From contig NC_135805.1 of assembly GCF_964213995.1 (NCBI RefSeq), forward strand, positions 47,492,001 to 47,556,000: a stretch of 64,000 bases of DNA, given 5' to 3'. Of this stretch, positions 3,301 through 61,400 are shown in pieces; within the stretch, counting starts at the first letter, position 1; every line of letters starts with the position of its first letter. The position numbers were made by a program, and so were the translations under genes. Below the pieces are notes generated by a model. It was not told the DNA's origin. It ran no database searches and saw only the letters and a list, made by a program, of their open reading frames with translations. Source of the stretch: Mustelus asterias (taxonomy: Eukaryota).

Positions 3301-6300
3301 CGGGATGGGAAAATTCTGCCCTTGGTCTTCTCTGTCCCAAACTGCATGGTTAGCACTGCTGCTTCACAGCGCCCAGGATCCGGGTTCATAAGTCTGCGCG
3401 AAGTTCGCACATTCTCCACATGTCAGTGTGGATTTCCTCCGAGTGCTCCAGTTTCTTCCCACAGTCTAAAGTAGTGCAAGTTAGGTGGATTGGCCATTGT
3501 CTCAGTGTCCCAAGATGTATAGGTTAGGGAATAAGCAGGGTAAACATGTGAGGTTACGGCGATAGGGCCTGGGTAAGGTGCTCTGTTGGAGAGTGGCTGC
3601 ACATTCAGTAAGTCAAATGGCCTCCTTCTGCACTGTAGGAATTCTATTATCTTCATACAATCTCAAGAACTTTGACTGCAACGACAATATCATTTTCCAT
3701 AACAATCACAAGGCTGAAGTTTAATGACATACACCTGCACCTTTTGTTTGACACGGAGAATTCTATTTCATGGCAACTAAACCAGGGTTGAGCCAGGCCA
3801 AAAAGTAATTTCATATTGTAGCCTTATAATCCAGCAGAAGGGGAATTATCTACCATTAACCTCAGCTCTATTCGGATCAGATGTGAAAGGATAAACCACT
3901 GCACCATCTAAATCTCCTGGCACATTTCCACTCCATCTGACGAAACAGCAGCGCTCCGAAAGCTAATGGCATTTGCTACCAAATAAACCTGTTGGACTTT
4001 AACCTGGTATTGTTAAAACTCTTACTGTGTTCACCCCAGTCCAACGGCAGCATCTCCACATCATCACTGGAGCATTAAACCAGGACTGAATCAAAGAAAA
4101 TCATCCACAATTCTACCTAATCTTGATTTAAATTAGGTTTAAAACCATAATAGTGTGGTGCTTTGCTACTTCACACTTTTCACTGTATTTCATTAGAAAT
4201 GCAACAAAATATAATGCATTTCTAAACTGAGAGATTACTAGGTCACCCCACCCATCCCCTGGTGTTACCACTTTTGCTAAATGTAATGATGATCAGGGGG
4301 ATAAAAATACAAATGCCTAAAAACACCACCTTTAATTATCAATAGGCATGGATTAAAAAAAACTATGTCCCTTTCCTCCTCCCTCTCTCTTCCTGATTTT
4401 AAAAAGTAGTGACTCAAACCAAATGCAGTCGCTATCTAACCAGTTTTCATCTCTTCTACAAGCTGAGCCGAAGCAAGGAACATTAGCAAGCAATCTGGTC
4501 CTGGAGGCTGACAGCTCTACTTCATCTTGGCCAAGTCCTGTATCTACATGCAGAGTTTCCTGGATGGTAGTCAGTAAAACCATGCAAAGTTTCACCCTGT
4601 CCCCTTTCTAATATAGAAAGGAAATCATTTATGAAAAGGAAATAATTATTTTTGGTTTACGTGGAAGACAGTATTTATAGGCTATCCCTAGTTAGAATTC
4701 ATAGAATCCTACAGTGCAGACAGAGGCTATCCAGCCCATCGAGTCTGCACCGATTCTGCGAAAGAACATCTTAATCCAGGCCCCTCTAACCCCACACATT
4801 TACCATGGCTTATACACCTAACCTACACATCTTGGGACATTAAGGAGCAATTTAGCTTGGCCAATCCACCCAATCTGCACATCTTTGGACTGTGGGAGGA
4901 AAACTGAGGACACGGAGGAAATCCACACAGATGTGGAGAGAACATGCAAACTCCACACAGTCACCCAAAGCCGGAATTGAACCCGGGTCCCTGCTCTGAG
5001 GCAGCAATGTTAACCACTGCGCCACCCTGTTGTCCACATTTTTATTAAGAGGTCATTCAGCCCCTTGAGCCTCCCCTGCTATCTGATTGCATCATGGCTG
5101 ACCTGCACCTCAACTCCATTCACCCGCTTAAGTTGTGCTGAAGGTAGAGTCATCCACAATGTATACAGAAAAAGTGTCAAGTGTAGGCTCGAGCAGGTAG
5201 AGGTGGCAGGTTCCCTTACCTGAAAGGCAGTTGAGTTTTTAATGGCAAGTTGGGAGTTTTGATGACTGGCTTATAAATCATTGGCTTTATTAAATTCAAT
5301 TGTATAATTTGTTGTGGTGGGATCTGAACTCTATCTCTGGGTTGTTAGTGAAGAACTATAATGGCCTAGCCACTATATCCAGCGAAAATGTTTGGAGAAT
5401 CAGATGCCAAATTTAGCACCCACCAGAGATGCCTCACTATCTAAAAAATATTTTAAATATGTTAAGTTTAAATTTGCATGTCATCAAGTTCTAAAATTTC
5501 AAGGATTAAACCTGATGTGAAATGCTTTGAATTATACAGTTCCAAAAAAAAAATGATGACACAGCAACTGATTGGGGAAAGAGAAGCAAAGAGAGGGGAA
5601 AAGCAATTAAGATTTCCACTCATTATTACTCAATGAGAATGGCTGAAATTCTATGTAGACCTGGTGCGGACAGGTTTGGGTGCAACTTGATGCCCATCAG
5701 TATTTACTATAAATACTGACGTACCAGAGGATTGCTGCTGGCAAACAAGGAGTCACTGCCAAGAAAAACGTTGGCAATGCTGAGAGTGGGATGAGGTGGT
5801 GAACAGGGAGAAGGAAGAATAGGCTGGGGCTGAGGGTGGGGAGGACAGAAAAGATTTACTGATTTGATAAAACCCGATATTTGAAGGATTTTCACAGTAA
5901 CTTAATTGCAATGTTAATGTACGTCTACTCGTGATAGTCATAAATAAACTTAACGAACATGTACGTTATAATGCCATATGTTTGCCTACTGAGAAATCAG
6001 AATATTAAAGCATCAAATTCTAATTACTTGGCAGAGGTGTCTGAAAAGTTGCAGTGATGCCTGGTCCAGGTCACCCAGCGAGAGCACGTGACAACGCAGA
6101 TACAGCAGAGCATTCACCAGTAGCTGTTCTTGTGTTGGGAGCAACTGTTGTTCCTTAGCCAGACACTTTTCATCTGACGAGGTTTTGCACAAGAACTGGT
6201 TCAGCCCTTTGAGGGTCTCCATGGAGGTCTTTGAACATAATTCACCTGCCTGGGCAAGGTAGGTTGGGAACGAGAAGCTGACGGAAGGGAAGGCTGAAAG

Positions 6301-15300: not shown

Positions 15301-18300
15301 AATAGCCAAGTTCTGCACACGAGGACGGCCTCAACCGGGATCTTGGGTTCATGTCACACTACCTGTAACCCCCGCCACGATTTGCTGGCTTGCAAAATCT
15401 TACTAACTGTCCTGGCTTGAGACAATTCACACCTCTTTAACCTGTGCTTAACCCTGTCTCCACTTGCATTGTCTGTACCTGTAAAGACTTGATTACCTGT
15501 TCAGACTCGCATTCCAACCATTATCTTGCAGTTGAGTCTGTGTCTATATATGCCCTGTTTGTGAACCCAATTCTCCACTCATCTGATGAAGGAGCAACGC
15601 TCTGAAAACTTGTGCTACCAAATAAACCTGTTGGACTTCAACCTGGTGTTGTGAAACTTCTTACTGTTCAAAATACTTGTTGAGAATTATAGATTTAATA
15701 TCATTGTACAACTGTTCACTTATTAGCTATCCTGTTGGCAAACCTCATACTCATACAAGTTATTTAAAAGGAAAATAAAACCAACCTTTAGGGATTTGTC
15801 GGTGATAGTTTCCGGCACCCAATCGACTCCTATGGATGTGGGGGGTTTCCACGTCAGCCAATAGTCAGGATCTGTTGTAACAGAGCTATTCCAGAATGTT
15901 CCAAATGTGGTTGACATCAGTTCTGAACTCAGCAACTTTAATTCTTCAGGAGAGAGCTGGGATAACGAGAACACATTAATAAAACTGTATCTCTAAATAG
16001 TTAATCAAATATTTTGCTCTTTCACTGACATCTTGGGTGTACATATCCATATTGATATACAATTTGGGGTTTCACTGATCTGTCAGGTTTAGTGTTTCCA
16101 AGGGTAAAACAGAGCCCCTCATATGCCTTAAACGTGAGGTGTTCCAGGAATTAATTTGCAAAAATGAATTTATTTATTTTTTAAACTAGAAACTATTTAA
16201 ATATAAGTTTATTTATTAGTGTCACAAGTCGGCTTACGTTAACATTGCAATGAAGTTACTGTGAAAATCTAGTGCCTGTTCGGGAACACTGAGGTACTCT
16301 TTTTGGTCCATCTCCGTACATATGCGTCTATACACTTTTGTAGTTGTACACCGAGGGAGAATTTAGCATGGCCAATGCACCTAACCAGCACATCTTTCGG
16401 ACTGTGGGAGGAAATGGAGCACCCGGAGGAAACGCACTCAGATGGTGGAGTCACAATCTGATTGCCACTTCACAGAAGTTCAGGCCCTGCATTTTCCAGA
16501 ACCTTTTACTGACATCAAGGACTCTCAGGTTAGGTATTGTATAGCCAGATGCAAATGAAGCCCCAAATGCACCAAAACACTGAACCCATGCTCGCAAAAA
16601 GATATCTTTCCCCCAAACCCAGCCCCCAGTCTTAAAATCCAGCAGCAGGTTGTGAATCATTTGTACAGTGTAAATGTGTGGGTTTCCTGAAACACTGATA
16701 ACAGACTTATAAAGGGCAGTAGTTTATTTACTAGCTTAGCAGCAACTTCATGCTTATACTCTGCCCGTGCTCCCAACATGTGACCTCTTTTGTAGCCGTG
16801 GCATCACGTCATTGTGTGACCACTCAATCTACACACTGCGTAAAAAGGAGAAGGACAACAGGTCTGTCAGGTGAGACAAAGTTTCTTCTGACACCCGGGT
16901 AAGAAAATCACAACATTATATTACAGCATTTCAATGCTTAACTTACCCGATTGTATTCATGTGCTCACCTCATCAACCTGTGACAAGTACCAAAATCCTT
17001 GGAGCTCTCGAGTTGCCACTGGGGTAGACCGTAAGCAGAATGATATTAATTGACGGAGTTGAGCTTGCATCATTGACTGATCTGGTTTAGCTCTGGCACT
17101 GGTGGTGATAAAACATGAAGTTTAGTACTTCAATGCAATTGGTATTGTTGGGCTACTGGTTTTCAAGTCAGTCTTTTTAAAAAATTAAAACAAAGGGCTG
17201 ACAATAAAGGAAAAAGAGATAGTTAATGATGGGTATGTGGCACCTTTGGTAAAATAAAGTATAAAGTGGTTCGCACTGCTGCCTCACAGCACCAGGGACC
17301 CGGGTTCGATTCCCGGCTTGGGTCACTGTCTGTCTGGAGTTTGCACATTCTCCCCGTGTCTGCATGGGTTTCCTCCAGGTGCTCCAGTTTCCTCCCACAG
17401 TCTAAAAATCTGCAGGTTAGGTTGTTGGCCATGCTAAATCACTCCTTAGTGTTAGGGGGGGGGGGGGGGGGGTGTCAGTGGGATTAGTAGGGTGAATGTG
17501 TAGGGTTACGGGGATAGGGCCTGGGTGGGATGACGTCGGTGCAGGTTCGATGGGCCGAATCTCCTTCTGCACCGTAGGTATTCTATGATTTTCACTTTCT
17601 ATAACAGGCAAACAATACCATGATTTGCAAACAGGCTGAAAATATTGTTAATAAAATAACTCCACATTCCCTTTGATGTGATAGAAAATCTCAAACACAC
17701 ACACACCCTCAAAATGAAGTTTGTGGTTTGATGTCTTGAGAGAGCAGGAAAGGGTGTGGCCCAGTTCCATTTTCAACAGTTTAAATATTATGTTCTGAGC
17801 TTCCCATGTTTGGGCACATATACAAATGTTGATCACCAGGTATTCACTGCATGGTTTCAGTTTTGCACATTTACAACTACAGAATCTGAGGGTCATAAAA
17901 ACTGACTGCACTGATCAATGTTATAAAGATGGGCAATCCATTGATAGGGCTGGTTGACAGTGGTCTCCACTGGCAAGCTTTGTAGTGTGCAGCAGTTTTG
18001 TTTTTTTAGGTGGCAAGCAAGTTGAACAGCTATTGAAGGGGGAGATGGTGGCATGGTGGTATTGTCACTAGATTTAGTCATCCAGAGGCCTAGGCTAAGA
18101 GAGGACACTGGTTCAAACCCGAGCATGGCATCTGATGGAATTTAAATTTAATTATAAATCTGGAATGAAAATCTAGTCTCAGTGATGACCATCAAACTAT
18201 CAATGGTCAGTGATTTGCCATCTTTACCTGTTGTGGTTTACATGCAACTCCAGATCCACAGCAATGTGGTTGACTCTTAAAATGCCCACCAAAATAGCCT

Positions 18301-43400: not shown

Positions 43401-46400
43401 CATGCTACTCCAGACCCACAGTAAAGTTTTTGACTCATTAACCGCCCTCTGAAGTGGCCTAACAAGGAACTCAGTTGAAGGGCAATTAGGGATTGGCAAC
43501 TCCACAGCCCATGAAAGGATAAATAACAATTAAGAAAGATATTTTAGTTTTAATTATGACGAGCTCAGCCACACCTTTAAAACTCCACATACTTGGCAAA
43601 ACTAATTGAGTGTTCAATCATGAAATGCAAGTTGTACAAAGCACTAACCTAGAGAACTCGGTTTTCTCCGCTGGGTTGGCGAATTACATCTACAGTACTT
43701 TCAAGCAGTGATGTAACAAATAGCAAAAATTCTCAAAATAATACGCAATTCTGAAAAAGGTATACAAATCACATGATGTAGCTTTTAACCAATATGCATA
43801 AATCCTTCCATAGCCATGCTAGGTGGATTGGCCATGGTAAATTGCCCCAAAGAGTTCAAAGATGTGTAGGTTAGGGGGATTAGCCATGGTAAATGTGCGG
43901 GGTTAGAGATGGGTTGGGCCTGGGTAAGATGTTCTTTCGGAGAGTCGGTGCAGACTCGATGGGCCTAATGGCCTCCTTCTGCACTGTAGGCATTCTATGA
44001 ACTGACCGCACTAAAAATAAAGCAACTACAGAAAAGCTCAGTTGACATGCTTACATGGTTTCTGTCTGCCTCAGATCGCATTCGGTCTGCATACACCAAA
44101 GCAACATGCTGGCCTGGGTCATAGCACCCAGGCATCTGATCTACCAACATCAGCTGGCACCAGCGGAAAAGGTCACGCAGGTTAAATTCCCATGGTCCTC
44201 CTTTCTGTCCCCACTTTCTTTCCACCGTTACTTCTTGGTTAATCTTCCAAGAACAAAAACAATTGAGTTAGTTAATGTCCAATGCTTTACATCCAACCTT
44301 GTTGTCTTGCATCAAAAAAAAAGGATCTCTTACCTTGCAATTAAAATGAACCATTTTGCTGATGATATTTTTACCAATTGCAGGAAACATGGTGTTTGCA
44401 ATGTACTCCATGTCTGTAACCGTAAGCTGGTCCACATATACCTGCATTAGAAAATCAATATTAACCCCAACAAAAATGACACTCAAGAAACAATACAGAA
44501 AATATTACAGGAAAATTTGGCATCATTTTTTACGCAATTGAATTGCATACACTGAACACATTCTTGATGCACTGGCAAACAGCTAAATATCATTATTCAA
44601 CACACTCAAAAAAATGGATCACTTGCGGCTGCACCTAAAACGTCAGCAATGGCTCGTCTTTGGCCCATGCTCCACTGCAGTATTTAAGAGCCTTTAGACC
44701 AGCCTTTAGTGCTACAGTGTCAAATGTGAGGCATTTAAAATGCGAAGTTAAATTGAAGCACAACTCTCCCAGGTGGATATGGAGGATCCTATGACATTAC
44801 TGAAAGAACAAGGGAGTTCTGTCTCCCAGCCAACTAGGTAAGAAGTTTAACAACACCAGGTTAAAGTCCAACAGGTTTATTTGGTAGCAAATGCCACTAG
44901 CTTTCGGAACAGGCCGTCCTTTCGTCAGGTGGAGTGGAGAAATGCCCAGCCAACTATCCAGGGATGTGAAACTTCAGTTGTGAGGATAGATTGGGACTGT
45001 TCTCTTAGGAGAGAAGGCGGCGAAGAGGCGATCTGATAGAAGTTGATGCAAGTGTTCAAAATCATGAGGGGCTGGACAGAGAAGAGAGGGAGAAACTGCT
45101 CCTGCTCATAATTGGATCAAGAACGAGAGGGCACAAAAAGGGAAAAAGGGGGTGGGTGGGGGAAGAGGAGTAGATAAAAATAAAAGAACCTTGAATTACT
45201 CTGCCTAAGGTTTTCAAAGGGGCCAGAAAGTATTAAAATGCTTCCACCTATAAGCTCATCATTCGCTAAATTTTCAAACAAAACAAAAGCTCACCAGCTA
45301 AGAACCTACACGTTATTTACCAAATTGTAATACGAGACCAAATGGCTGATGAAATCAGTAACGAGATGCAACTTATTAGGTTCAAACAGAAGGCTTCATG
45401 AAGTGCATAGGATGGAGGGTTATAGGTAGGCCTAAAAAGTAGGGATATATGTTCGGCACAACTTGTGGGGCCAAAGGGCCTGTTTTGTGCTGTAGTTTTT
45501 CTATGTTTCCAAGTGTACCTCTGATTGCTTAGCAGAATAATGGGTCATGAGCTGGGATATATGGGCAGAGCAAAGTCGACTGCGCTCATTATCCTACCTT
45601 ACCTGTGTGAACCTGTTGAGGAACGACTTGGGGAGACCTTTCCTTCCACCCCCTTGGCGATAAGGATTCTGACAACCAAAGATCTTAGTCCTCTCGTGTT
45701 CCACACTAAAGTGATGGCCCAATTCGGGGATAAAAATCTCAGCGCGATGGTCGAAGCAGGCATTTAGTCCCTCTAGCACAGACTGGGAAGCCAGGTTTAG
45801 CTGAAAGAACAATGTTAATTAATAGTCATTCCATCTTCAATAATATCTTTCATTACTTGCTTTTTGCATTAGTGTTGCTGAAGATAGTGAAATGAAACTC
45901 AATTAAGTTCAAAATCTGCCCATCAGCACAGATGGGAGAGGCACATTACGAGCACTGAATATATAATTATGTGAATCCAGAGACATTTATTGACACTGAA
46001 CAAAACGCAGGGGATGTTTTGAGTAGCTAAGCTGAATGATTCAATTATATCTCAATGGCTCGTCATCCAAAACTTTATCAGCTGAAAGACATTAAAAACA
46101 CACCACCCTTAGAATTCCTGCTGATAAAACAATATAGTCTGTTACACAAACAAAAAGTCGCTAGATAAACTCAGCAGGGGCAGCATCTGTGGAGGAGAAA
46201 CAGCGTTAACATTTCAAATCCAACATGACCCCTCTTTGGAACGCGAGAGGTCGAAATGTTCTGGGTGTTATGTTGTTGAAAAAGGGGGAGTGCCATACAG
46301 TCCAAAAAGGGAAGATCAGGGATAGGCCAGAGAGCGGGAAATATTTCTCTCCCATGTTTCACAGCATAAAACCTGTCAGATTTCTACCTCTGTAGTTCCA

Positions 46401-49400
46401 AAAATGAGCCTTATTGGACTCAAAAAGTTAACTCTTTCCTTCTCCTCGGATGCTGCTGGACCTGCTGAGTTTTTCCAGCATTTTTATTTCAGATTTACAG
46501 CATCTGCAGCATTTTGCTTTTATTTTATTATCTCATACATTGTTTACCCTAAAATTGCATACTCTTTCTACAGAAAGAACAAATCAATACGACGAGGCTG
46601 GAAGATGATAGAAGAAAAGGGAGGAGAAAGGAAAGCAAGTTTCAACAGCTCTGCTTGGACATAGAATCACAGAATCCCTAGTGTGCAGGAGGCCACCATT
46701 CAGCCCATCAAGCCTGCACCCACACCAATCCCACCAGGGCCATATCTCTGTATCCCTACATATTTACCCTGCTCGGCTCCCTGACATTAAGGGGCAATTT
46801 ACCGTGGCCAATCCACCTAACCCGGGCATCGTTGGAGTGAGGGGAAACCAGAGCACCTGGGAGGAAACCCACGCAGACACGGGGAGAACGTGCAAACTCC
46901 ACACAGAGAGTGACCCGAGAACCCTAATATGTCCCTAATAAGGGAGGAAGTCTTCCATGTGGATAACTGATTGAAGCAAAGAAAATTAAGAACCAAATGT
47001 ATACATTCTGCAGTCATGGATTGATGTTGGACTAATCATGGATCTGGAACATATCTGTTTGGCCATTCAGTCAAAGGGCATTTACAAGGGGGTGGGAGGG
47101 AGAGAAAAGCTGAGGAGTGTAAAAACCCAACACGTGAAAGATGACAATAAGTCACCGAGTTTTAATTAATTTCAGTTGTCATTGATGAATACACAGGGGC
47201 CACTTGAAGCCCTTTAGGTACAATGGAGGTTCTCTGCTGTTTCAAAACGAAAGCATAACAGAAAGCTCACATCCACACACAGCCATCTCAATCAATCTCA
47301 CATCGGTGCTACATTTTTGTAAAATGATGAAGTTGCTCAAGACCCAAGGTTTGGTGATGAGATTAACTAAAGCAGATCAATAACACTCACCTCATCTAAA
47401 ACAATCCAATGTCCAGCCTTGAGGGCTGCAAGCAGAGGACCATCACGCCAGGCAAATTCGCCTCCTTTACCCCCCTCAACAGGCAGGTCTGTCCCAAACA
47501 AGTCAGTCACATCCTACAGGAACAGCAGTTTTTGTCAATAATTAGTACAGGTCAAAGACAGAAATCTTTTATCAGTCACATTTATTCCATTTAACACAGA
47601 AATTTCTGGCTGCAAACAGGAGGAAATTAATCATAATGGTAAGCATCGGATATATAATCTATGCTGCATTGAATAGTCAACTTTAGAGCAACTGGCCAAA
47701 TTGGTAACTGCAATTATGGATTTATTACAATTATATATGTTGGGCAATACAACCATTAATAAAAATTCAATCTGCACTCCCAATCGTTTCCAGCCAAATT
47801 AAATTCAGCTCTGGCCGGAGGCATAACACTGAACAATTAAAATCAAACATCACATCAAGCCCAAGACCAAGTGCAAAGCCTTTTCTTGTCAGCTTGGATC
47901 TTGTTTGTCTCCTTTGTGGGGACCATGAAATGGATTAAATTTAAATTGGTTTTTGGAGTTAGTGAGAGATTAAGGGCTTGTCTACTCTGCACATTAAGCT
48001 GGCATTGTGAGACTTCTCAAAGTCCAACAGGTTTATTTGGAATCACAAGCTTTCAGAGCGCTGCTCCTTCATCAGATGACTCACCTGATGAAGGACCAAC
48101 GCTCCGAAAGACAGTGATTCCAAATAAACCTGTTGGACTTCAACCTGGTGTTGAGAGACTTCTTATGTGCCCACCCCAGTCCAACACCGGCATCTCCACA
48201 TCGGCTTTGTAACTTTAAGAATGGAGTAAAATTAAAAACAAACAACCAACCAAATGATGTTCATCAATTCTGTGGGTGTCCTGGCTAACATTTATTCCTC
48301 AATTATCGCGATTATCTCTTCATTTCTCTTATTTATTTGCAAATTGACTGCCATCTTCTCCATATTACAACATAGACTAAACTTCGTAGTTAAATCATTC
48401 AACTGTGAATCATTTTGGGATATCCAGAGACATTATATAAATAAATATTTTACGTCTTCTGCATTGTTGCTGCCGAATACATCAAAATTTTCCTGCTTTG
48501 TGAAAAATCTGAATTCTCAGAATGCAGCCTGCTTTTATAATGATTTAAATTGAGATTCATGGGAAAGGGAAAACAACGACTCGGGAAAGTTCAATCGCAG
48601 GCAACAGGACTTCAAGCTGTCTTCACACTAACTTACTGTTTGCTCAGAAAGGTTGATTCGGACAAGCTGGTTTCCAGAAGCCTTTGCCAGAGCTGTTACC
48701 AAGCTCGTCTTTCCAACTCCTGGTGATCCCTCTAATAGAATTGGCCTTTTTAACTTCAATGCTCGCAGCAGTCTCAGTGCATTCATCGCTGTTGTGCCAG
48801 CATTCAGTGCATAGTCTGTGACTGCAATTTTCTCTGCAGCAGCCCCTACTGAAAACATTAACATACACATTTATAGACATGCACACAAAGTTCTTTAAAG
48901 CCTATATAATCAGTCACCATGAAACAATATTGCACCCCCCTGGAATCAAATGAGGCAAACTGATCAATTTTTCCCAGGGGCAGGATATTCCGGCCACACT
49001 CGCCCCAAGGCCGGAATATCCCACCCAAGGTCACTGGACCTTTGCATGGTCTGTGTCCCGCCTGCTACAATTCCCGTGGTGGGCGGAATGGGAAAAGTCA
49101 GCCCCAGATGTTTTGTCATAGAGGTTACAGCATGAAAACAGGCCCTTTGGCCCAACTTGTCCATGCCGACCATTTTTTAAAAAAAACCCCTAAGCTAGTC
49201 CCAATTGTCCGCATTTGGCCCATATCCCTCTATACCCATCTTACCCATGTAACTCTAAATGCTTTTTAAAAGACAAAATTGTACCCGCCTCTACTACTAC
49301 CTCTGGCAGCTTGTTCCAGACACTTACCACCCTCTGTGTGAAAACATTTTCCCTCTGGACACTTTTGGATCTCTCCCTTCTCAGCTTAAACCTATGCTCT

Positions 49401-52400
49401 CTAACTTTAGACTCCCCTACCTTTGGGAAACGATATTGACTATCAAGCTGATCTGTGCCCCTCGTTATTTTATAGACCTCTATAAGATCACCCCTCAACC
49501 TTCTACGCTCCAGAGGAAAAAAGTCCCAGTCTATCCAGCCTCTCCTTAATTCAAACCATCAAGTCCGGGTAACATCCTAGTAAATCTTTTCTGCACTCTT
49601 TCTAGTTTAATAATATCCTTTCGATAATAGGGTGACCAGAACTGTACACAGTGTGTACATGGTCACATGTTACATGTTTTAACTCACGTAACCTTGCTGC
49701 TGGTAGCTTGGAAGAAGCACAAACAGACAAATTTAATTACAAGAAAAAGGCCGAAAAGAATTTGAAATTCAGCATCTAGAAAAGTGAAGGTATGTACTTT
49801 AAAACAAACTATAAGGATTTCGGATTTCATTGTAATGTTATTAGACAGGCTATCCCACAAATCTGGCCATGTTTGATGGAATGATCTCCTCACTTTGGAA
49901 GTTAGAATATTTAAAATGAAATCACGGTGGAACAACGGTTAGCACTGCTGCCTCATGGCACCAGGGACCTGGGTTCGATTCCCGGCTTGGGTGGCTGTGC
50001 GGAGTTTGCGCGTTCTCCCCGTCTGTGTGGGTTTCCTCTGGGTGCTCTGGTTTCCTGCCACAGTCCAAAGACGTGCAGGTTAGGCATATTAAATTGCCCC
50101 TTAGTGTCAGGAGGATTATTGGGTAAATATATGGGGTTACGGGGATAGGGACTAGTTGGGATTGTGGTTGGTGCAGACTTGATGGACCAAATGGCCTCCT
50201 TCAGCACTGCAGGGATATTATACCAACTCTGGCAGACATAATCCAATACAGGTTAGCAGCCTTGGAGGAATGAATGATGGGTGTTTTAATACGAAAATCG
50301 GCCTTTTGGAAAAGGGTTTTTGGAGGCTGTGAAATCAATGACCAAACAAAATTTATAATGATTGCCAGATGAAAACATACCAGAATCCTGGTTTGCCTTC
50401 TACTATCCTGGTACTACACGTGACGATAATGGAGTTGTTGACTTAATCAGAGCAATCAATTAGTCTTCAACAAACCCAGAAACACGACAAGGAAAACCTT
50501 GGTGGTGAAGTGCTTTGAGGTTCATAAAATGTCATGTAGACTTCCCCATTAGAAAGATCCAGATATACACATTACAGGGCATAGTACACAATGACAAATA
50601 GTACCAGGGACCAAACTGCTTCACACATATCTCAAATGTATGACTTCAATGTGCTAACAAAAACAACTCTTAAAACTAGTGGTCCAAAGTCACCACCCCT
50701 TCCAAAGCACAAGATACTTACAATGACTTTTGTGTCTTAAATTACTCAACATATATCATTTAGTAGGGAGACTGGGAAGAAGCAAAAATTGGGAGGTACA
50801 AATTGATCAGGTTTTCAAGAATATGTCATTAATCGCTCTCCAATCCTTACCAATGGGAATGTAGAATGGATGAATTCCAAAACAGTGTTTCGTCCACACA
50901 ACCTTCCTCTTTTTTTTCTGATCGTAACTGTTCAGCATTTTCCAAACACGTTTTGTCAACTTTGTAACTTTGGACAGTTTTTTAAAAAGAAAGTTCAGAC
51001 ATGCTTTCCGTGCAGCCAGAGTTGCTTCTGAAGAACAGAATGTAGACCCTGGAAGGAAATAAAATCAAAGGGATCAAACCTATAGGCACAATTAACTTGC
51101 AGTTCAGATGAACAGTCTGCCAAGGCAACACTGACTTCAGATTCCCTTGTGCCTTGGGCTGAGCCACTGAACAATGTATTTTACTACAGGAAATATTAAA
51201 TGAAAAGAAATTTGTTTTTCCTTTCCAATACTTTCATTTTAGAACGTTTAGCAAAATTCATTTTTAAAAAGTGAGTACAGATTAATTAGGCTGAATATCC
51301 AGTTTCTATGATGCAAATTCTATATAGACGACTACATTTATGGACAGCCATAAATCAAACACAAGGCAGCTTGAATCAGGAATTAAAAGGCAAACTGCGA
51401 TCACATCCAACTGCTTGGAGAATGGGAAACACAGCCTCTCTCAGCTCATCGTTTCAGGATGAGTTTTTTAAATACACATTGGGCTCATCAAAACATGAAC
51501 AGCATGGGATTTTAGATTTTGCCTATAATAGGGGGAAAAATTACCACATGTTAAACACATTTCTTATTTTCCTCCTGTTCTTTAGATTTCCCACATGCAC
51601 ATCATTGCTGGAACAAGTGGACTGTAGGTAACCTATTCTCAGTTCTTTGAAATTATTGGCCTCAAATTTGTTGCTAGTTTGCAGTGGAGCATAAAATGGG
51701 TCAGCTTTGCATTTCCCCCACTTCTACAGCGAACTTTCTCTCCTGAAAAATGTCCTCACTGTGGAGAGGGCAATGTTACGGACAGGAGAAAGACGTTTCC
51801 ACTTAATAATGGCAGTTTCATAGCAAACCCCTGGGTGACAGAGTGCTTAGCACTGCTGTCTCAGCGCCAGGGCGATTCCTGGCTTGGGTCACTGTCTGTG
51901 CGGAGTCTGCTCGTTCCCCCCGTGGGTTTCCTCCGGGTGCTCCGGTTTCCTCCCACAGTCCAAAAGACGTGCTGGTTAGGTGCGTTGGCCATGCTAAATT
52001 CTCCCTCAGTGTACCCAAACAGGCACCGGAGTGTGGCGACTAGGGGATTTTCACAGCAACTTCATTGCGGTGTTAACGTAAGCCCTACTTGTGACACTAA
52101 TAAATAAACTTTTAAAAAGCTAACACATACCAGATCCAATTCCATCGATACAAGTGAGGCAGGCAGCATGTATGAACCCAGTGACAGGGTCAAGCTGGAA
52201 ATCGCCACTTTCATCCAAATCCCGAATGTCTGAGGCTGCCTCTTTAGTTGCAACATTCATGAAGTTTACCCAGGACAGAACATCACGGATGCTCAACACA
52301 CATCGACGCCCAAACTCTTGATTCTTTAACCAGTCAATGAAATCCAGAACAAGTTCCGCTATATCTTTGCCTGTAATACATAGGGGGAAAATGACCACAT

Positions 52401-55400
52401 TTTAAACCCAATTCTGGTTTCCTTCCTGATCTTTAGATTTCCACAGGCACACCACTGCTGGAGCAAGTGGACTGTAGGGAACCCTATTTTCAGTCCTTTG
52501 AAATTATTGATCTCAAATTTGTTACAAGTTTGCAGTGGAGTGCAAAATGGCTCAGCTTTGCATTTCCCCACTTCTACTGCGAACCTTCCCTTCTGAAAAA
52601 TGTCCTCACTGTGAAGAGGGAATTCTTCACAGAACAAGACAGGAGAGAGAGAGAGGAGAGAGAGACAGGTAAACTGTACTTATTTCCTTTCGCCACCTGC
52701 CCCCAGGCAGAATGTGTTTCAAATCATTTTTAAAGTCTGGGGCAGCGTATTTTCCCAAACATTCAATTTGTGACATCCAATTTACTGATAATCATCGCAT
52801 TTTTATTAACTCAGAAGTGAGCTAATTTCACCTTCAAACCCCCTGCAGGAGTGTTAGCAGTGTCCCAATTTCACCCCACCCCACTGACCATAAAGGGGGT
52901 AGGGAGGGAGAAGTGGACGATAGAGGGAGTTTTACAACTATTTCTTGTCTCAGACTCTGTGGAATTCTTTACTGCAGAGAGTTGTAGAGGCTGTGACATT
53001 AAGTATGTTCGAGGCGGAGTTAGATAGATTTTTAATCAGTAAGGGAATCAAGAACAATGGGGATGAGGCGGGAAAGTGGAGTTGAGGATTATGTCATGAT
53101 CTCATTGAATGGCGGGACAGACAGTATGGGCCGAATGGCCTACTTTGGCTTCTACATCTTATGGTCAGTAACCGAACAAGAACAACTGACATCAATATTC
53201 GCTCACGCGAGAGAGTTGAGTCAGCGTTCAATGGGAATTCTTTCAAGTAGGAGTTAAGAGTTCAGCTGTCGAGGATCAGAGTTGTAGGATTTGTTACACA
53301 TTTGCTACTGATGCTGCAAGGTGGTGAAGTAGGTACATATGGGCTGGGTTGGTTCTGCCGACGATGGTAGGAAACCAGACTTGAGGAGCAGGCTGTTATT
53401 CAGCCTGAAGGGCGGTTTCTTGGTGGTTCATCAGTTGGTTGTTAAACAGCAGGCTAAAGATGTAGGGCTAGATTCTCTGGACTCCCAGCCACATGTTTCC
53501 CACTGGCGGGATGTGGCGCATTGTTTGCTAGCGGCGGGATTCTCTGCCCACCACTTTCAATGGGAATTCTCACCAACGTCATCCCACACCAGCAGGAACC
53601 CCGCGGGCAGGGGTGCATTGCTGGCAGGACAGGAGAATCCCACCGGTATGAACAGCCAGAGAATTCCGGCTGTAATGTGATAATTGTCCAAAAAAGCCAG
53701 AGGCTTGGGTCATGTGACACGCCACATTAATGGTTAATTAGTTAGTTTCTGCACTTCTGGCCAGAATTGCTCCTTAAGAGAGACACAAAGTGGTTTTTAG
53801 CATCTCTTCCAGCACAGTGAGTTTCGATCTCTCTCTTTTGTGACAGTTGGTCACGTGACTTGTAACAGCCATCCTTTTTGATTCCACAGAAAATCCATTT
53901 TTAAAAATAGCAATAAGAATAAAGTTTTGAATGGTGTTGGATTTCTTTTTCATGTCATAGGAACTCAACAACAATCAGAGCGCAAGTAAAAGCCCTTTGT
54001 GCACGACATAAAATGAACACCGACTGTCTTCGGTCCAAGCTTCTGGGGCAGTGAATATTACAAAAACGTCCCTTTGACTTATCAGAACTACTATTTCAAT
54101 TCCGCTTACTTTGACTTGGAGACAGTAAGTTTGAGTGAGTACAGGGCCAGACTGATGGTTGCCTCTTAAAAATCAAAACCTAAGTAGAGCATAAAGGGTT
54201 TCCTTCTATAGAACAAGGAAAAGCTACTTTAAAATCTATTCAGGGATGAATACAAAATGATAGGAAAAACTTTGCAATACCCAGAATTAATTCATGTGAC
54301 CAATAAACTGATGAGCTGACTCAATAGCCCAATGATAAGGCTGAACATTCAGCCTTTCACTCCAGGTCATTTCTCAAAATGCACAAAACTTCCAACAAAA
54401 ATAAAGGTAATACAAGTCCGCGGCATTCCCCACCTCCATGATCTTGCCCATCTAAAGAGAGTCCAGGGTTTAAATTATGTTGAATGATCACCATCATATC
54501 CTCCCGGCTGTTGCTCGGTGGGCACCAGATCTCAGTGAATCGGTTCCTCAGGGCTGGCGAAAGCTGAAATGTTAAACAATGGGTCAACTTGCATCACAAG
54601 AGCAGACGGCTTCAAATTTACAAATTTTCTATTTCTCTCTCAGACACCTCATCCGAAAGGATATTTTGTTAGTAATAAAACTGAAAACGGTTCCAATATA
54701 AAACAGGTTTAAAACAACTGATGTAACCACTATATTGGTGTCCTATACGTACAGACAATCCAGAGCGAGATGGCAAATGTAATCTTTTAATTGGAAACAA
54801 AAGCGTAAAAGCAGAAGAAACCTTACCAGGTTTCTAAAAACAAGGGCAGACCATCAAATGGTAGGGTGAAACGTTAACAAGCTTGTCCACTGAAGGTGTA
54901 ACAGGGGAGAAGGAGGGGCCGTAATGTTAAACGTGATGAAAGTCACGACAAGCAAGAGGAGCAAAGCCATTCAGCCCACCTAGCTCACCCATCCACTGAA
55001 ATTTATGATTTCTCCATCAGACTAACAGCGTGAGCAGAAGAGGTGCAATGTCTACAATGCGATAGCTAAAGTGGAACCATGAGAGTCTAATCATGGAGGT
55101 AAATGGGAGAGGAGTGACAAAATGGAGGAGGGGGAACCACCATAGTTAAAAGCAGCAGCAGATGAGGAATAGATGGCTTGTCACAGCGACAGCCCTCACC
55201 CACTTCAGGCCTCACTCTTAATTCTGCGGTCAGCATTAGAAATGAATCGAAGAGTCTTGAATAGTGTGGCAGTATTATAGCACAACATACTCCAGAGTTT
55301 GAGGAAATAGGGAATCCATAGAATCCCTAGAATGCAGGTGGTGGTCATTCGGCCCATCAATTCGGTACTGACTCTCCAAAACAGCACCGTACTAAGTGTG

Positions 55401-58400
55401 ATGAACACTAGCATAGACTAGTTAGACCAAATGTCTTGCTTCAGTGCTGTAAATATTTAAATGTAATTCTATATAAACAACAACAGAAAACTTGCTCTCA
55501 AGAGTCACAGCAGCACCCTTGGTTCAGAGTCCAAATGCTGAGGGCTCAAGTCTAACTGCAGAGACTTGGGCACATTCCCTCAGCAATACCAAGAGAATAT
55601 TGCTGGAAAGTCACGTGTCAGTGCTATCACGTGGCCTTAATTCATTCAAAGAGCCAAGGCACTCTCCCTAGTGGCTTGGCTAACTGAAGGTGTAGGAGGG
55701 GAGAGACACACACTATCTGGTCATTTTCATTGGGAGCTTGCTGTGTGAAAACTGGCTGCTAAGCTTTTTTAAAATTAAAATACTTAATTGGCTGCCAAGT
55801 GCTGTGGGACACCCAAGGGTTGTGAAAGGCTGGTTATAAATGCAAATTCTTTCATCCTGCCCAAGAACATTAACTGTCGATACAGATATTGAGTAGTGAT
55901 TGTAATAATTTCAAAGAAATTGAACATTGAAATCTTCATTGGACATAATGCAGTTCCACAATGGCTCACCTCTTTCTTTCCAAAATCTCCTCCAGGGTTC
56001 ATGGTTGCAAGTATCCGAAATCTGTTTCCAGCACTTATGAGGTCCACACTATCATCTTCCCCACTTCCCTTTTCTGCAAGCAAGAGTGTCCGTTCATCTT
56101 CCAGGACACTGCGCACACATTCAAACAAGTCAGTGAACACAAAATGGAAAAGTTACACAACAGTTAAAAGGTTTAGGAAAAAAAAGCACACTCCTATACT
56201 TGACATCCAAAATTTAACTGACAAATCAGATTGAAACACCACCTGTTGAGTCTTTCCAAAACAGAATCATCCGCCAATGAGATTTCATCCATCAGAAACA
56301 GGTTATCTTCCTTCATAGCAAGCACAAGAGGTCCATCGTGCCACTCAAATAGCCTGTTCGGGCTGGCATCATCCTGATGATCAAGAAATATATCTTAAAA
56401 GTGCAGCATTACCCTTACTCAAATACTGGAGAACAACAATATTAACAACAGTTGCACATTCTTCCTGTGTCTGCGTGGGTTTCCTCCAGGTGCTCTGGTT
56501 TCCTCCCACAGTCCAAAAGATGTGCAGGTTAGGTGAACTGGCCATGCTAAAATTCTCCCTCAGTGTACCCTAACAGGCACCGGAATGTGGCCACTAGGGG
56601 ATTTTCACAGCAACTTCATTGCAGTGTTAATGTAAGCCGACTTGTGACTAATAAATTTAATAAAATAAAACACAAACAGCTTGTGCAAAAACTGCCTCCA
56701 TGCGGCAGCTGTACAAACTGTCTAATCCCTGACCTACACGCAGTTAAATCAGCACAGTCTTAACAATTTAGAAGCAAAATTTTGTGCCACACAAAGCATC
56801 AGCCATGATCCAACAGAGTGGTGGAGAAGGCCGACTGGGCTAAGTGCCCTACAGATGTTCCCACGTTCCTTTCAGGACATCCCTACACAGGTCCTGCCAA
56901 CAACCATATATGCACAAAGGGGGAAGACAGATACTCATTAAATCCCAATTTAGTCATGGTCAGATTCCCTGGTGTGGATCACCTTTTTGATGCCCTCACT
57001 CACGTGAATACATAACTGAAGGAAAAAAATGGACAATTCCCTGCAATGTAAAATATTGATGTACTCCATGCAGTTTCCTTTAGTTTTCTTCCTTAATACT
57101 TTGATGGGGTGCGGGCGCCGCTGGCAAGGCCAGTATTTGCTGCCCCTCCCCGATTGTCCTGGAAATGAATGACATTTGAGGGCAGTTAAGGGTCAACACA
57201 TTGCTGTGGGTTTGGAGTCAAATATAGGCCAGACGAGATAAGGATGGCAGATTTCCTTTCCTAAAGGGAAGTCAGTGAACCATATGAGTTTTTACAATAA
57301 TGACCGAGACTGGCTTTCAATTCCAGATTTTACTAATTGAATTTAAATTACACCAGCTGCCATGCTGGGATTCAAACCCATGTCCCCAGGGCATTAACCC
57401 GCGATGCTGGATTACTAGTTCAGTAACACAACCACCAAGCCACCTGCTCCCTCCCTATCATGCAAATGGCTGCTATGCTTTCGGCGATGTTAGTCTTTCC
57501 TCCCCAAACCCTGTCATTTCACCTTCCTCTTCTCTAAAATTCTCCACCTCACTCTCTTTGGCTCAGTGCCCATTTTGTCTCAATACACATCTGTGTAACT
57601 CCTTCAGCTGTGCAGGGTAGTGGTGGTCTATATTAAAAGGAGAGTTGCTGTTTTAATACCCCATCCTTTGGGTTGTACCGGGCTGAATTTGAAATCTCTC
57701 ATTGAATCAGGTGGATGCACTGCATCAACATTATAAAACGGGTAATCAAAGAGCACACCCATTACCAAGTATGGATATTGTGCACATCCTGGTGCACCTC
57801 AAGACACCGTTCACAATTATGATGCCGACTACAGAATATGGGCACGGCTCGAATTATAAATCAGAGTTGGGGTTATTTTCTTTTCAAACTTACTCCCTCT
57901 TCAACAAAATCTGGTTCATACAAGCTTACTAACTTGCATTCGCCACCTCTGTAGGAAAGTCCATGTTTAATAATTAGTTTTGGTTTCTTGATATGTAATT
58001 ATCAAATAATCGAAGTGTTTAATCAATTAACTCATGATGTAAGGTACCAGTATCATCCTATGTAAGCCTGTGTCATTAGGTGCATTCTCACTGACCAGTG
58101 AAATGTGCCATTTTGCCTCAGACCAAAGTACGGTTACGTGTCATGGTTTTGTTACAGGACAAATAACGGGAGGAAACCCATTGAATACAGGATTAACGCA
58201 AGGGTCACTTATTGTTTAATTGTCAAAGCAAATGATGGAGAGATTAGGTTTTGGAAGTTGTATTCCTCTCAGTGTATTGTGTAAAGCAGAATTGTTTTAG
58301 GTCTCAAACCACAGTTCTGTGTCTTAAATAGCTTAAGTAACTTAGAACCTTAAAAAGAGAAATATTCACTTTCTTTTAAAGTGTGCAACAGATCAATGCA

Positions 58401-61400
58401 CAAGTGGTTTCTGTATCTTTGGAATCAGTTTCTGTAATCAGTGTTATGAGTTTTGATGAAGGGTCATCTAGACTCGAAACGTTGCCTCCATTCTCTTTCC
58501 ACAAACGCTGTCAGACCTGCTGAGGTTCTCCAGTACTTTGTTTTGTTTCAGATTCTAGCATCTGCAGTATTTTGCCTTTATTGTAATTATGTAGCTTTTG
58601 TGACTTATTTCTTATGAGCATGCATTAATCGGATGTTATTTTGTAATACATGCCTTGAAACCCCAACACATTAATCATATGTACTGATTTTATATGTACT
58701 ATAGTAATTTTTTTTAACTGCTGTATTGGTTTAAGATTGTGTGCCTCTTGGAGCTTTAGTTATTTTTAAGAAACTTGCTTCAGGCAACAGCAGTCACGAG
58801 GAAGTTGGACACAATCGTTTGAACTTCCCAGCTCCAAAGCTCGTGCATGACCCGATTTTCTGCACAAATGTAATCTTTCAGATTGACTTTCTACACTGTT
58901 TGGCTTCCACTTATTTACCTCAGTTACGTTGCTCAAAAGATAATTCAGGTCAGCAAGTCTAACGGCTGGTTGGTGAATGAGATGATGTGGAGATGCCGGC
59001 GTTGGACTGGGGTAAACACAGTAAGAGTTTTAACAACACCAGGTTAAAGTCCAACAGGTTTATTTGGTAGCAAATGCCATTAGCTTTCGGAGCGCTGCTC
59101 CTTCGTCAGATGGAGTGGAAATGTGCTCTCAAACAGGGCACAGAGACACAAAATAAAGTTACAGAATACTGATTAGAATGCGCATCTCTACAGCCAACCA
59201 GGTCTTAAAGATACGGACAATGTGAGTGGAGGGAGCATTAAGCAGAGGTTAAAGAGATGTGTATTGTCTCCAGACAGGACAGCCAGTGAGATTCTGCAAG
59301 TCCAGGAGGCAAGCTGTGGGGGTTACTGATAGTGTGACATAAAGCCAACATGTGTGCAGAACTTGGCTATCAGAATATTTGCTACCAAATAAACCTGCTG
59401 GACTTTAACCTGGTGTTGTTAAAACTCTTACGATGAATGAGATGAGAACTTGTGGGAGTGGAGGGAGACCCAGACTGGACACTGGACCAGAGACGACCAA
59501 TAGATTAGAGAACTACAGTCAACGTACCTTTTCATTGGAACCATGTCGGACAGGCCTTAGGCCCCCGAGGAAGTCAGATGTTTCCAGGTGCAAGTGACAG
59601 TTCACTGTGTGGAGCTCTTGATCAAACATGGAAGCAAACATCTGGCACATTGTGGTCTTACCACAGCTGTACAAAGCAAAGACATTCCATATTCAGTTAT
59701 TGTATCCATAAGATAATGGAAAGCACTAAAGCCTACTGAGGAACAGCAGTGATCAATACAGATATTGAAGAATTACATCATGATTCAAAATCATTTGGGC
59801 TAAAAAAAAAAATTTCATCCAAATACGGGTTCCAGCTTGAAATGGAATATCGAGAAAACAATACTCAATATCAGATAGTGGTGCTGAAGTCCACACAGAA
59901 TGTTGGGATACAAAGACAAGAAAGAAAGTTTAAACACAATGGTTAGTCCTCACCTCGAGCAGGACAAACACGCATTTATGTTGTAAATTCACTATAGAAA
60001 AACATTATAAGGCAATATGACAGCTATGGGTTTTTTAGAGCTAGTTCTTATTTTTATTAATTCACAGGAAGTTGGCTAGGCCAGCATTTATTGCCCATTC
60101 TTAATTGCCCTCGAGAGGTTGGTAGTGAACTGCCTTCTTGAACCGCTGCAGTCCCTGTAATCCAGGATTTTGACCCAGCGACTCTGAAGGAATGGCAATG
60201 TATTTCCAAGTCAGTGTGTGTCCAACTTGAGGGAAACTTGCTGATGGCGGTGTGCCATGTGCCTGCTGCCCTGTACTTCCAGCTAGTAGCCATCACAGGT
60301 TCAGTAGGTGCTGTCGAAGGTGCCTTGGTTTGCTGCTGCAGTGCATCTTATATATAATACACATTGCTGCCACTGTGTACCGACAGGCAAGGGAGTGAAT
60401 GTCTAAGGTGCCAATCAAGCAGGCTGCTTTGTTCTGGGTAGTGTTGAACTTTTTGGAGCTGCACTCATCTAGGCAAGTAGATAGGATTCCATTGCACTCC
60501 TGACAAACATAGCTGTGTCTTGTCGATGATGGACAGGCTTTGGGGAGCCAGGAGGAGTGTAACAAACAGAATTCCTAGCTTCTGAGCAGTTTTTGCAGCC
60601 ACAGTACTTAAGGCTAGCTCAGTTAAGTGTCTGATCAATTGTGACTAGAACACTGATAATGCCATTTAATGTCGAGGGGATTGTTAAGACTCTTATTGCC
60701 TGGCACTTGTGTAACACAAATGGAGTGTTACATGCCAGGTAACAGCCCACGCCAGAATACTATCTAAAGAATTGCAAATGGTCCTGAACACTGCACAATG
60801 AACATTCCCATTTCTGACATTATGAAGGGAGTTGTGGTTAATGCAGCTGAATATGGTTAAGTCTAGGACTGAACTCCAGAGATGACTGGTCTCCAAAAAC
60901 CAAAACTCCAGCCAGTTGAAAGTTTACCCCACCTTATTTACCCCCTGCACAGTGGATAGCACTGCTGCCTCACAGCAACAGGGACCCAGGTTCAATTCTG
61001 GCCTTGGGTGACTAGTCCGTTTGCACATTCTCCCAGTGTCTCCATGGGGTTCTCCCCACAGTCCAAAGATGTGCAGGTTAGGTCGATTGACCATGTTAAG
61101 TTTCCTGTAGTATCCCAAGATGTATAGGTTAGGGTGATTAGTGGGGTAAATATATGTGGTGTTACATGGATAGGGTTTAGGCAAGATACTCTGTCGGCGA
61201 GTTGGTGCAGACTCGATGGGCCGAATTGCCTCCTTCTGCACTGTAGGGATTTTATGATTCCCAATGGCTTCAATTTTACTAGGGATTCTAGATGGTAAAA
61301 AGCTGCCTTGCCATGAAGGGAAGAACAGTCACGTTTACCTCACCTCTGGAATCCAGTTCTATTGTCCATATTTAAACAAAGGCTGTTATTAAGTCATTTT

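What the first reader, a model, noticed from the sequence alone, without database searches (positions are those of the whole stretch)
44894..59113. Minimal hammerhead ribozymes with stem-I covariation, three in the sense of the MDN1 pre-mRNA
Seen: Penelope-like termini carry stemI-CUGANGA-stemII-GAAA-GC-UH-stemI. Stem I covaries between copies: CCAU/AUGG (59077-59113 minus; 3933-3969 plus), CCAC/GUGG (44894-44932 minus), UCAU/GUGA (48043-48079 minus) and UCAC/GUGA (48081-48117 plus). Stem III is reduced to the palindrome AGCU and cannot close in a monomer. Known: Penelope-like elements carry minimal type-I hammerheads proposed to cleave as dimers. Inference: three copies are transcribed in sense within one MDN1 pre-mRNA, so they could dimerise in cis through AGCU and cut introns co-transcriptionally, which might affect splicing of an essential ribosome-biogenesis gene.
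Basis: partly seen in the sequence, partly recalled or inferred. Interest (0 to 1): 0.75.

Follow-up and report, generated by a model that had tools for sequence, protein, structure and literature searches.

The report
Penelope hammerhead stubs in MDN1 introns
The small hammerhead-ribozyme motifs are real, but they are the tail ends of a very abundant Penelope-like jumping gene that landed in MDN1 introns in both directions, and they are likely idle passengers rather than a device that cuts the MDN1 transcript.

Summary
All five motifs are at the stated coordinates, a sixth was missed, and MDN1 runs on the minus strand. Stem I covaries genome-wide. The motifs are 3' ends of an RT + GIY-YIG Penelope-like element: 31,326 exact core copies, roughly 3x10^5 ends by extrapolation. 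Intact elements carry the motif in 3.1-kb head-to-tail tandems, the likely native dimer. The cis-dimer reading for MDN1 is not supported. The window holds three sense and three antisense copies. The sense copies sit in three different introns, 11 kb (six exons) and 3 kb (two exons) apart. Only one keeps an intact core. One is predicted to be buried in a long hairpin with its inverted partner; one has lost the G10.1-C11.1 pair. Across 1.5 Mb of gene bodies there is no strand bias (62 sense, 70 antisense), and cores decay as fast as flanks. One weak hint remains: sense copies are more often intact (27 of 54 against 17 of 54, p=0.08). The class was described in 2014, and this scan has noted it before in other genomes (89 notes, at least 14 genomes). 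Verdict: new member of a known kind.

The parts
59077..59113 (-). Minimal hammerhead, sense to MDN1, the only intact core in the window (CCAU/AUGG, GGAGC/GCUCC, CUA triplet; predicted cut between 59081 and 59080)
58986..59433 (-). Penelope-like insertion: last ~360 bp of the element plus 39-nt tail, preceded by an inverted 55-nt pLTR piece (59377-59431); 12-bp target-site duplication at 58974 and 59434
48043..48079 (-). Minimal hammerhead, sense; G10.1.U11.1 wobble; predicted to be buried in a hairpin with its inverted partner
48081..48117 (+). Inverted partner of the same insertion (48019-48202), antisense; AGCU and UH lost
44894..44932 (-). Minimal hammerhead, sense; GGGAC/GUUCC subfamily with G10.1 changed to A; insertion 44837-44944 with 12-bp target-site duplication at 44825 and 44945
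3933..3969 (+). Minimal hammerhead, antisense; first two pairs of stem II broken
15579..15615 (+).
44334..59665 (-). MDN1 (midasin) AAA-ring exons around the sense copies: 59665-59525, 56376-56245, 56128-55964, 54566-54408, 52371-52129, 51049-50849, 48849-48637, 47513-47373, 45803-45591, 44450-44334 (approximate tblastn ends)

Best explanation
The motifs are the hammerhead-bearing 3' ends of an endonuclease-containing Penelope-like retrotransposon, left by separate insertions in MDN1 introns, and they are likely inactive passengers there. Shown: RT and GIY-YIG-type coding sequence lies upstream of the motif in longer copies; intact ~890-codon elements occur head to tail with identical hammerheads 3,097 bp apart; most genomic stubs are divergent inverted pairs ending at one of two tail positions; two window insertions have 12-bp target-site duplications. 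Inferred: the ribozyme works in the element's own tandem RNA, where two identical copies swap strands (stem I in trans, a 4-bp AGCU stem III), probably helped by the element's protein, and cuts unit-length RNAs. Covariation would then record selection on the few active master subfamilies. After insertion the copies decay about neutrally and would rarely, if ever, cut the host pre-mRNA.
For: PF00078 above cut-off and PF01541 just below it (21.3 against 22.6 bits) upstream of the motif. Tandem of three identical hammerheads around two 913-codon open frames in L211. 31,326 exact 28-nt cores, control 0. 104 of 144 hits in 1.63 Mb are in divergent pairs under 3 kb; neighbours under 3 kb are -/+ 52, +/- 9, +/+ 3, -/- 1. 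Strand in gene bodies: 62 sense of 132, p=0.54; 9 of 17 in a second 290 kb. Non-CpG core changes 32 of 1044 against tail 88 of 3045, p=0.75; the CpG at C11.1-G12 is changed in 24 of 174 (87 of 100 full-span copies were scored). Covariation in 72 distinct copies: 37 cells changed on both sides against 7.1 shuffled. Literature: PMC4209133, PMC11167929, PMC8557442.
Against: Sense copies were more often intact than antisense ones in the first set: 25 of 55 against 15 of 57, p=0.048; 25 of 49 against 15 of 51, p=0.041; non-CpG core changes 9 of 480 against 23 of 564, p=0.047. Same-age inverted pairs point the same way without significance (9 against 3, p=0.15). The small second set does not (2 of 5 against 2 of 3; pooled 27 of 54 against 17 of 54, p=0.077). 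These are nominal values among about ten tests. The gene bodies tested are mostly three related genes, not housekeeping genes. No RNA data or cleavage assay was available. Folding energies ignore tertiary contacts and proteins.
Confidence: 0.88

Rival explanations
1. One reading: the three sense copies pair in cis through AGCU in the nascent MDN1 RNA, cut introns and alter splicing.
For: Three copies are sense. All three keep CUGANGA, GAAA, GC and UH. Fast intronic ribozymes can lower splicing (Fong 2009 as cited in PMC10919898).
Against: Three different introns, 11.0 kb/six exons and 3.1 kb/two exons apart. Two copies damaged at 10.1-11.1. One predicted to be locked in a -99 kcal/mol hairpin. 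Modelled active heterodimers (-12.2, -8.9, -5.2 kcal/mol) are less stable than the separate monomers (-18.3, -17.9, -14.4); the AGCU duplex alone is -2.5 (the values with copy 44894-44932 give it no stem II and so understate it). Even adjacent identical dimers cleave weakly in vitro, and slow ribozymes do not affect splicing.
Confidence: 0.03
2. Intact sense copies such as 59077-59113 are cut at a low rate in trans, pairing with abundant RNA of the same subfamily or helped by the element's protein where it is expressed, so host pre-mRNAs suffer occasional intron cleavage.
For: One window copy is intact and matches a subfamily with more than 16,000 U-A type cores. Many ~900-codon open frames exist, so the protein may be made. 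The anole PLE hammerhead cleaves when its protein is added. Weak excess of intact sense copies.
Against: No depletion of sense copies, which harmful cutting would predict. No read ends at the cleavage site in anole RNA-seq. In local context stem probabilities for this copy are 0.03-0.04 with 60-nt flanks, although both stems form in the longer fold closed by the inverted 55-nt arm.
Confidence: 0.08
3. Chance motif matches or assembly artefact.
For: No Rfam hammerhead model matched at E up to 5.
Against: 5 matches against 0.02 expected; genome-wide covariation; target-site duplications.
Confidence: 0.01

Closest known systems
Minimal hammerheads (min-HHR) of metazoan Penelope-like elements, Cervera and De la Pena 2014, PMC4209133 (read: abstract, results, discussion, methods; supplement file 2 searched by terms, file 1 not searchable)
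   Same: Type-I core with no loop III, palindromic 15.2-16.2, extra nucleotide between A9 and G10.1, G10.1-C11.1 pair, 4-bp helix I, several subfamilies with compensatory changes, mostly dispersed single motifs, opposite-strand pairs 100-700 bp apart, tandem copies about 3 kb apart around an RT ORF.
   Different: Helix II is 5 bp here against 7-8 bp in Schistosoma. Copy number is far higher (at least 31,326 exact cores; 4,000-9,000 reported for coelacanth and Xenopus, by a different method). No shark is named in the supplement file searched.
Poseidon element PAc of Anolis, Frangieh et al. 2024, PMC11167929 (read: main text and start of methods)
   Same: Hammerhead in the pLTR next to the ORF start; two 3' end points separated by a 30-40 bp tail; tandem repeats.
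   Different: PAc's ATG lies at stem II; here the ATG of the long frame follows the tail. This element has a CX4CxxC linker, absent from Penelope/Poseidon according to PMC8557442.
Neptune/Nematis-type EN+ PLEs, Craig et al. 2021, PMC8557442 (read: passages)
   Same: RT, CX2-5CxxC linker, C-terminal GIY-YIG; partial tandems; inverted 5'-truncated copy; 30-40 bp tail.
   Different: No tree was built, so Neptune is the likely clade, not a tested one.
Functional intronic ribozymes: CPEB3 (PMC10919898, passages) and conserved amniote hammerheads in RECK, CTCL, DTNB (PMC6155905, passages)
   Same: Self-cleaving motif in the sense strand of an intron.
   Different: Those are conserved single loci, and the CPEB3 ribozyme cleaves on its own with a 2-3 min half-life. 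These are young repeat copies on both strands that lack a monomeric stem III.
Non-LTR retrozymes, Li et al. 2026, bioRxiv 10.64898/2026.07.22.740005 (read: abstract, introduction, part of methods, passages)
   Same: Type-I hammerheads derived from PLE pLTRs; found in one chondrichthyan.
   Different: Retrozymes are short tandem arrays, somewhat depleted from Xenopus introns; the window copies are dispersed stubs or inverted pairs.

Membership tests
PLE minimal hammerhead (min-HHR) | Core CUGANGA ... GAAA ... UH in type-I order | tested here: met
   5 of 6 window copies; 48081-48117 lacks UH
PLE minimal hammerhead (min-HHR) | No loop III; palindromic 15.1-16.1 (AGCU) | tested here: met
   4 of 6 window copies; columns at least 90% conserved in 80 copies
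PLE minimal hammerhead (min-HHR) | Extra nucleotide after A9 and G10.1-C11.1 pair | tested here: met
   Family: G-C in 63 of 72 distinct rows. Window: kept in 2 of 6 (59077-59113 and the antisense 48081-48117); broken or wobble in the other four
PLE minimal hammerhead (min-HHR) | Compensatory changes in helices I and II | tested here: met
   5 of 9 pairs change on both sides; 37 cells against 7.1 shuffled; slid controls 2-5 pairs and 3-12 cells; genome-wide 2x2. These reflect a few subfamily events.
PLE minimal hammerhead (min-HHR) | Lies in the pLTR of a Penelope-like element | tested here: met
   Window stubs map to the ends of the L212 unit; tandem in L211
PLE minimal hammerhead (min-HHR) | Self-cleavage as a dimer | not testable with these tools
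   Needs an in vitro assay
EN+ Penelope-like element | Single ORF with RT and C-terminal GIY-YIG | tested here: met
   RVT_1 40.1 bits over cut-off 29.6 in an 893-aa frame. GIY-YIG 21.3 and 20.5 bits, under the 22.6 cut-off, in two partial frames and not listed for the full frames at E 0.05; VVYLIRC...YIGET is visible
EN+ Penelope-like element | Tandem pLTRs, inverted 5'-truncated copy, 30-40 bp tail | tested here: met
   3,097-bp tandem; 104 of 144 hits in divergent pairs; two end points about 39 nt apart
Neptune clade | CX2-5CxxC linker before the endonuclease | tested here: met
   PCHSNLCKTC; shared with Nematis per PMC8557442
Neptune clade | RT phylogeny | not tested
   No reference PLE proteins were fetched
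Rfam hammerhead families | Match to a curated covariance model | tested here: not met
   None of 6 Rfam matches at E up to 5 is a hammerhead
Non-LTR retrozyme | At least two consecutive short tandem units with hammerheads | tested here: not met
   Window copies are single or inverted; same-strand copies are at least 3.1 kb apart
Domesticated intronic ribozyme (CPEB3/RECK type) | Locus conserved across species | not testable with these tools
   No related genomes held
Domesticated intronic ribozyme (CPEB3/RECK type) | Sense-strand preference and protected core | tested here: inconclusive
   No strand bias; core decays like tail; weak sense-intact excess, pooled p=0.077

The most novel reading that the evidence does not exclude
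Tens of thousands of intact sense-strand minimal hammerheads in this genome's introns are cut in trans, by pairing with RNA of the same subfamily or with help from the element's protein, making a retroelement a genome-wide modulator of pre-mRNA integrity; the slight excess of intact cores in sense copies would be its trace.
Probability: 0.07. Interest if true: 0.7.

Novelty: new member of a known kind. Interest (0 to 1): 0.17.

Why it matters
As it stands this is an ordinary example of a class described in 2014. Its practical value is scale: a young family with intact tandem elements and several covarying subfamilies is good material for testing what PLE hammerheads do, which is still open. 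If host pre-mRNAs were cut at intact sense copies, a transposon ribozyme would act on thousands of genes; the evidence here gives that little support.

Tried and rejected
Rfam scan: no hammerhead model matched. Sequencing runs: no RNA holder listed; this says nothing about expression. Laying the four listed runs on the region, to see whether the insertions are polymorphic, returned nothing, so that question is open. Fong et al. 2009 was not held; it is cited only through PMC10919898. Pfam named 2 of 11 window frames (AAA_5 for an MDN1 exon, RVT_1 for a LINE-type frame), so MDN1 was identified through PDB and tblastn instead. Papers found for the G10.1-C11.1 pair and the CUH triplet gave no rate data; that loss of this pair lowers cleavage is recalled, not shown. 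Rejected: chance; retrozyme array (no short tandems); three copies as one functional unit (separate insertions, two with their own target-site duplications); selection against sense copies (62 of 132 sense, 15 of 38 among unpaired hits, p=0.26). Not-in-print searches: 'Penelope-like + shark + hammerhead ribozyme' gave 1 paper, whose only mention is the shape of a shark's head; 'MDN1 + hammerhead' gave 1 unrelated review, listing only; 'Penelope/elasmobranch/transposable elements/shark genome' gave listings only. Subscription papers, Repbase entries, file 1 of the 2014 supplement and the bioRxiv preprint's supplements were not seen and may already hold shark copies.
Full report
OBSERVATION. The five motifs are present at the stated coordinates. 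A relaxed hammerhead descriptor finds 5 matches in the window against 0.02 in 100 Markov controls. The copy at 48081-48117 lacks AGCU and UH, and a sixth copy at 15579-15615 (+) was missed. Exons at 55787-56152 and 42371-42733 match midasin on the minus strand in the right order, and tblastn with vertebrate midasin fragments maps the exons. The window therefore has three sense and three antisense copies.

WHAT IT IS. An exact 28-nt core occurs 31,326 times in the 3.68-Gb genome, with equal strands and control 0. A profile search gave 144 hits in 1.634 Mb and 17 in a further 0.29 Mb, about 84 per Mb, or roughly 3x10^5 ends if these gene-body regions are typical. Longer copies carry RT and GIY-YIG-type coding sequence upstream of the motif. 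L211 holds three identical hammerheads 3,097 bp apart around two 913-codon open frames, and L212 holds one frame between two motifs. The window fragments map to the ends of that unit. Copies end at two points about 39 nt apart, and 104 of 144 hits form divergent inverted pairs. Tandems, an inverted truncated copy and a 30-40 bp tail are the described marks of Penelope-like elements (PMC8557442, passages; PMC11167929). The CX4CxxC linker points to Neptune or Nematis rather than Penelope/Poseidon; no tree was built. Two window insertions have 12-bp target-site duplications, two have 7-bp candidates and one has none.

COVARIATION. At the pair next to the cleavage site the genome holds 16,582 U-A, 13,195 C-G, 1,555 C-A and 1,568 U.G copies. 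Alignment A1 has 80 rows: 74 of the 77 references (three mis-anchored or internally deleted rows dropped) plus the six window copies. In 72 distinct rows, 5 of 9 pairs change on both sides, 37 cells against 7.1 shuffled. The rows descend from a few subfamilies, so this is a handful of events. It shows selection on the fold in the elements that spread, not on the copies in MDN1.

THE MDN1 CIS-DIMER IDEA. The sense copies lie in three different introns. Six exons and 11.0 kb separate 59077-59113 from 48043-48079; two exons and 3.1 kb separate the latter from 44894-44932. Only the first passes a strict core test. The second has a G.U at 10.1-11.1 and, in the pre-mRNA, follows the complement of its own inverted partner, giving a predicted hairpin of -99 kcal/mol with hammerhead stem probabilities of 0.0. 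The third belongs to a GGGAC/GUUCC subfamily and has A at 10.1. In a hammerhead dimer stem I forms between the two copies (established model; PMC4209133 Fig. 1 legend). Three of six cross-combinations carry a mismatch, one of them next to the cleavage site, and all modelled heterodimers are less stable than the separate monomers. These energies omit tertiary contacts, and the homodimer also scores slightly below its monomers (-19.1 against -21.8), so only the ranking counts. In print, min-HHR monomers did not cleave and dimers cleaved weakly. The anole PLE hammerhead needed its protein and left no read ends at the site. Slow intronic ribozymes did not affect splicing (Fong 2009 as cited in PMC10919898).

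TEST FOR HOST-LEVEL SELECTION. I took four gene bodies oriented by Sushi exons. Three were confirmed by collinear CUB/Sushi exons; the names CSMD and SVEP1-like are recalled from the domain pattern. With the mapped MDN1 span this is 1.53 Mb. Sense 62 of 132 (p=0.54); unpaired hits 15 of 38; MDN1 span 4 of 9. The second set, partly oriented alone, gave 9 of 17. Because most insertions are inverted pairs, parity is partly built in. Non-CpG core positions changed as often as the non-catalytic tail (3.1% against 2.9%, p=0.75) and the core CpG changed in 14% (87 of 100 full-span copies passed the anchoring filter, which drops the most decayed). Against my reading: intact cores were commoner in sense copies (25 of 49 against 15 of 51, p=0.041; core changes 1.9% against 4.1%, p=0.047; matched pairs 9 against 3, p=0.15). 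The small second set gave 2 of 5 against 2 of 3, pooled p=0.077. With about ten tests run, this is a lead only. Its direction is opposite to purging of harmful cutters.

MECHANISM. Shown: anatomy, copy number, arrangement, covariation, decay. Inferred: the motif acts in the element's tandem RNA as a strand-swapped dimer of identical copies, probably protein-assisted, and the intronic stubs are by-products of truncated and inverted insertion. Confidence 0.88. Cis-dimer cutting of MDN1 0.03; low-level trans or protein-assisted cutting 0.08.

COMPARISON AND NOVELTY. The sequence features that define min-HHRs are met; cleavage is untested. The class, its dimer model, the opposite-strand pairs and the 3-kb tandems are all in Cervera and De la Pena 2014. 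My searches found no paper on shark PLE hammerheads or on MDN1, but a 2026 preprint reports related retrozymes in one chondrichthyan. This scan holds 89 notes with the same key words in at least 14 genomes, and the eight shown reach the same verdict; they were read after my reading was formed and are not independent evidence. Verdict: new member of a known kind, interest 0.17.

Noticed in passing
window 48019-48202 and 59021-59431; 104 of 144 hits in L034-L190 and the window: Most insertions are inverted pairs, so any transcript through them is predicted to form a long double-stranded hairpin in either orientation (about 60 bp and 56 bp in the window). At about 30 pairs per Mb this is a large possible source of intronic dsRNA (A-to-I editing substrates, recalled), perhaps more relevant to the host than cleavage.
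   Followed up: partly
L211 (G000:C10:36785001-36794000): Head-to-tail tandem of an element with two 913-codon open frames and three identical hammerheads 3,097 bp apart; natural substrate for a dimer-cleavage test.
   Followed up: partly
alignment A1, columns 17/27 and 18/26: Stem II shows A-U, G.U and G-C forms at one pair across subfamilies, and G-C to A-U at the next; loop II is 3 or 5 nt.
   Followed up: yes
window 59065-59126: Stem I may extend past an internal loop (GCAGAU with AUUUGC in some subfamilies), as in canonical type-I hammerheads; read from the sequence only.
   Followed up: no
window 6886-8317, 8360-8887, 23299-23706, 41584-42030: LINE-type reverse transcriptase fragments in MDN1 introns (RVT_1 for 6889-7866).
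   Followed up: no
window, repeat families D1-D20: A second, more abundant dispersed repeat of SINE-like length occurs in both orientations; not related to the hammerhead element.
   Followed up: no
PMC4209133 supplement, lamprey row: The lamprey PLE hammerhead has the same UCAC/GUGA stem I as one subfamily here.
   Followed up: no
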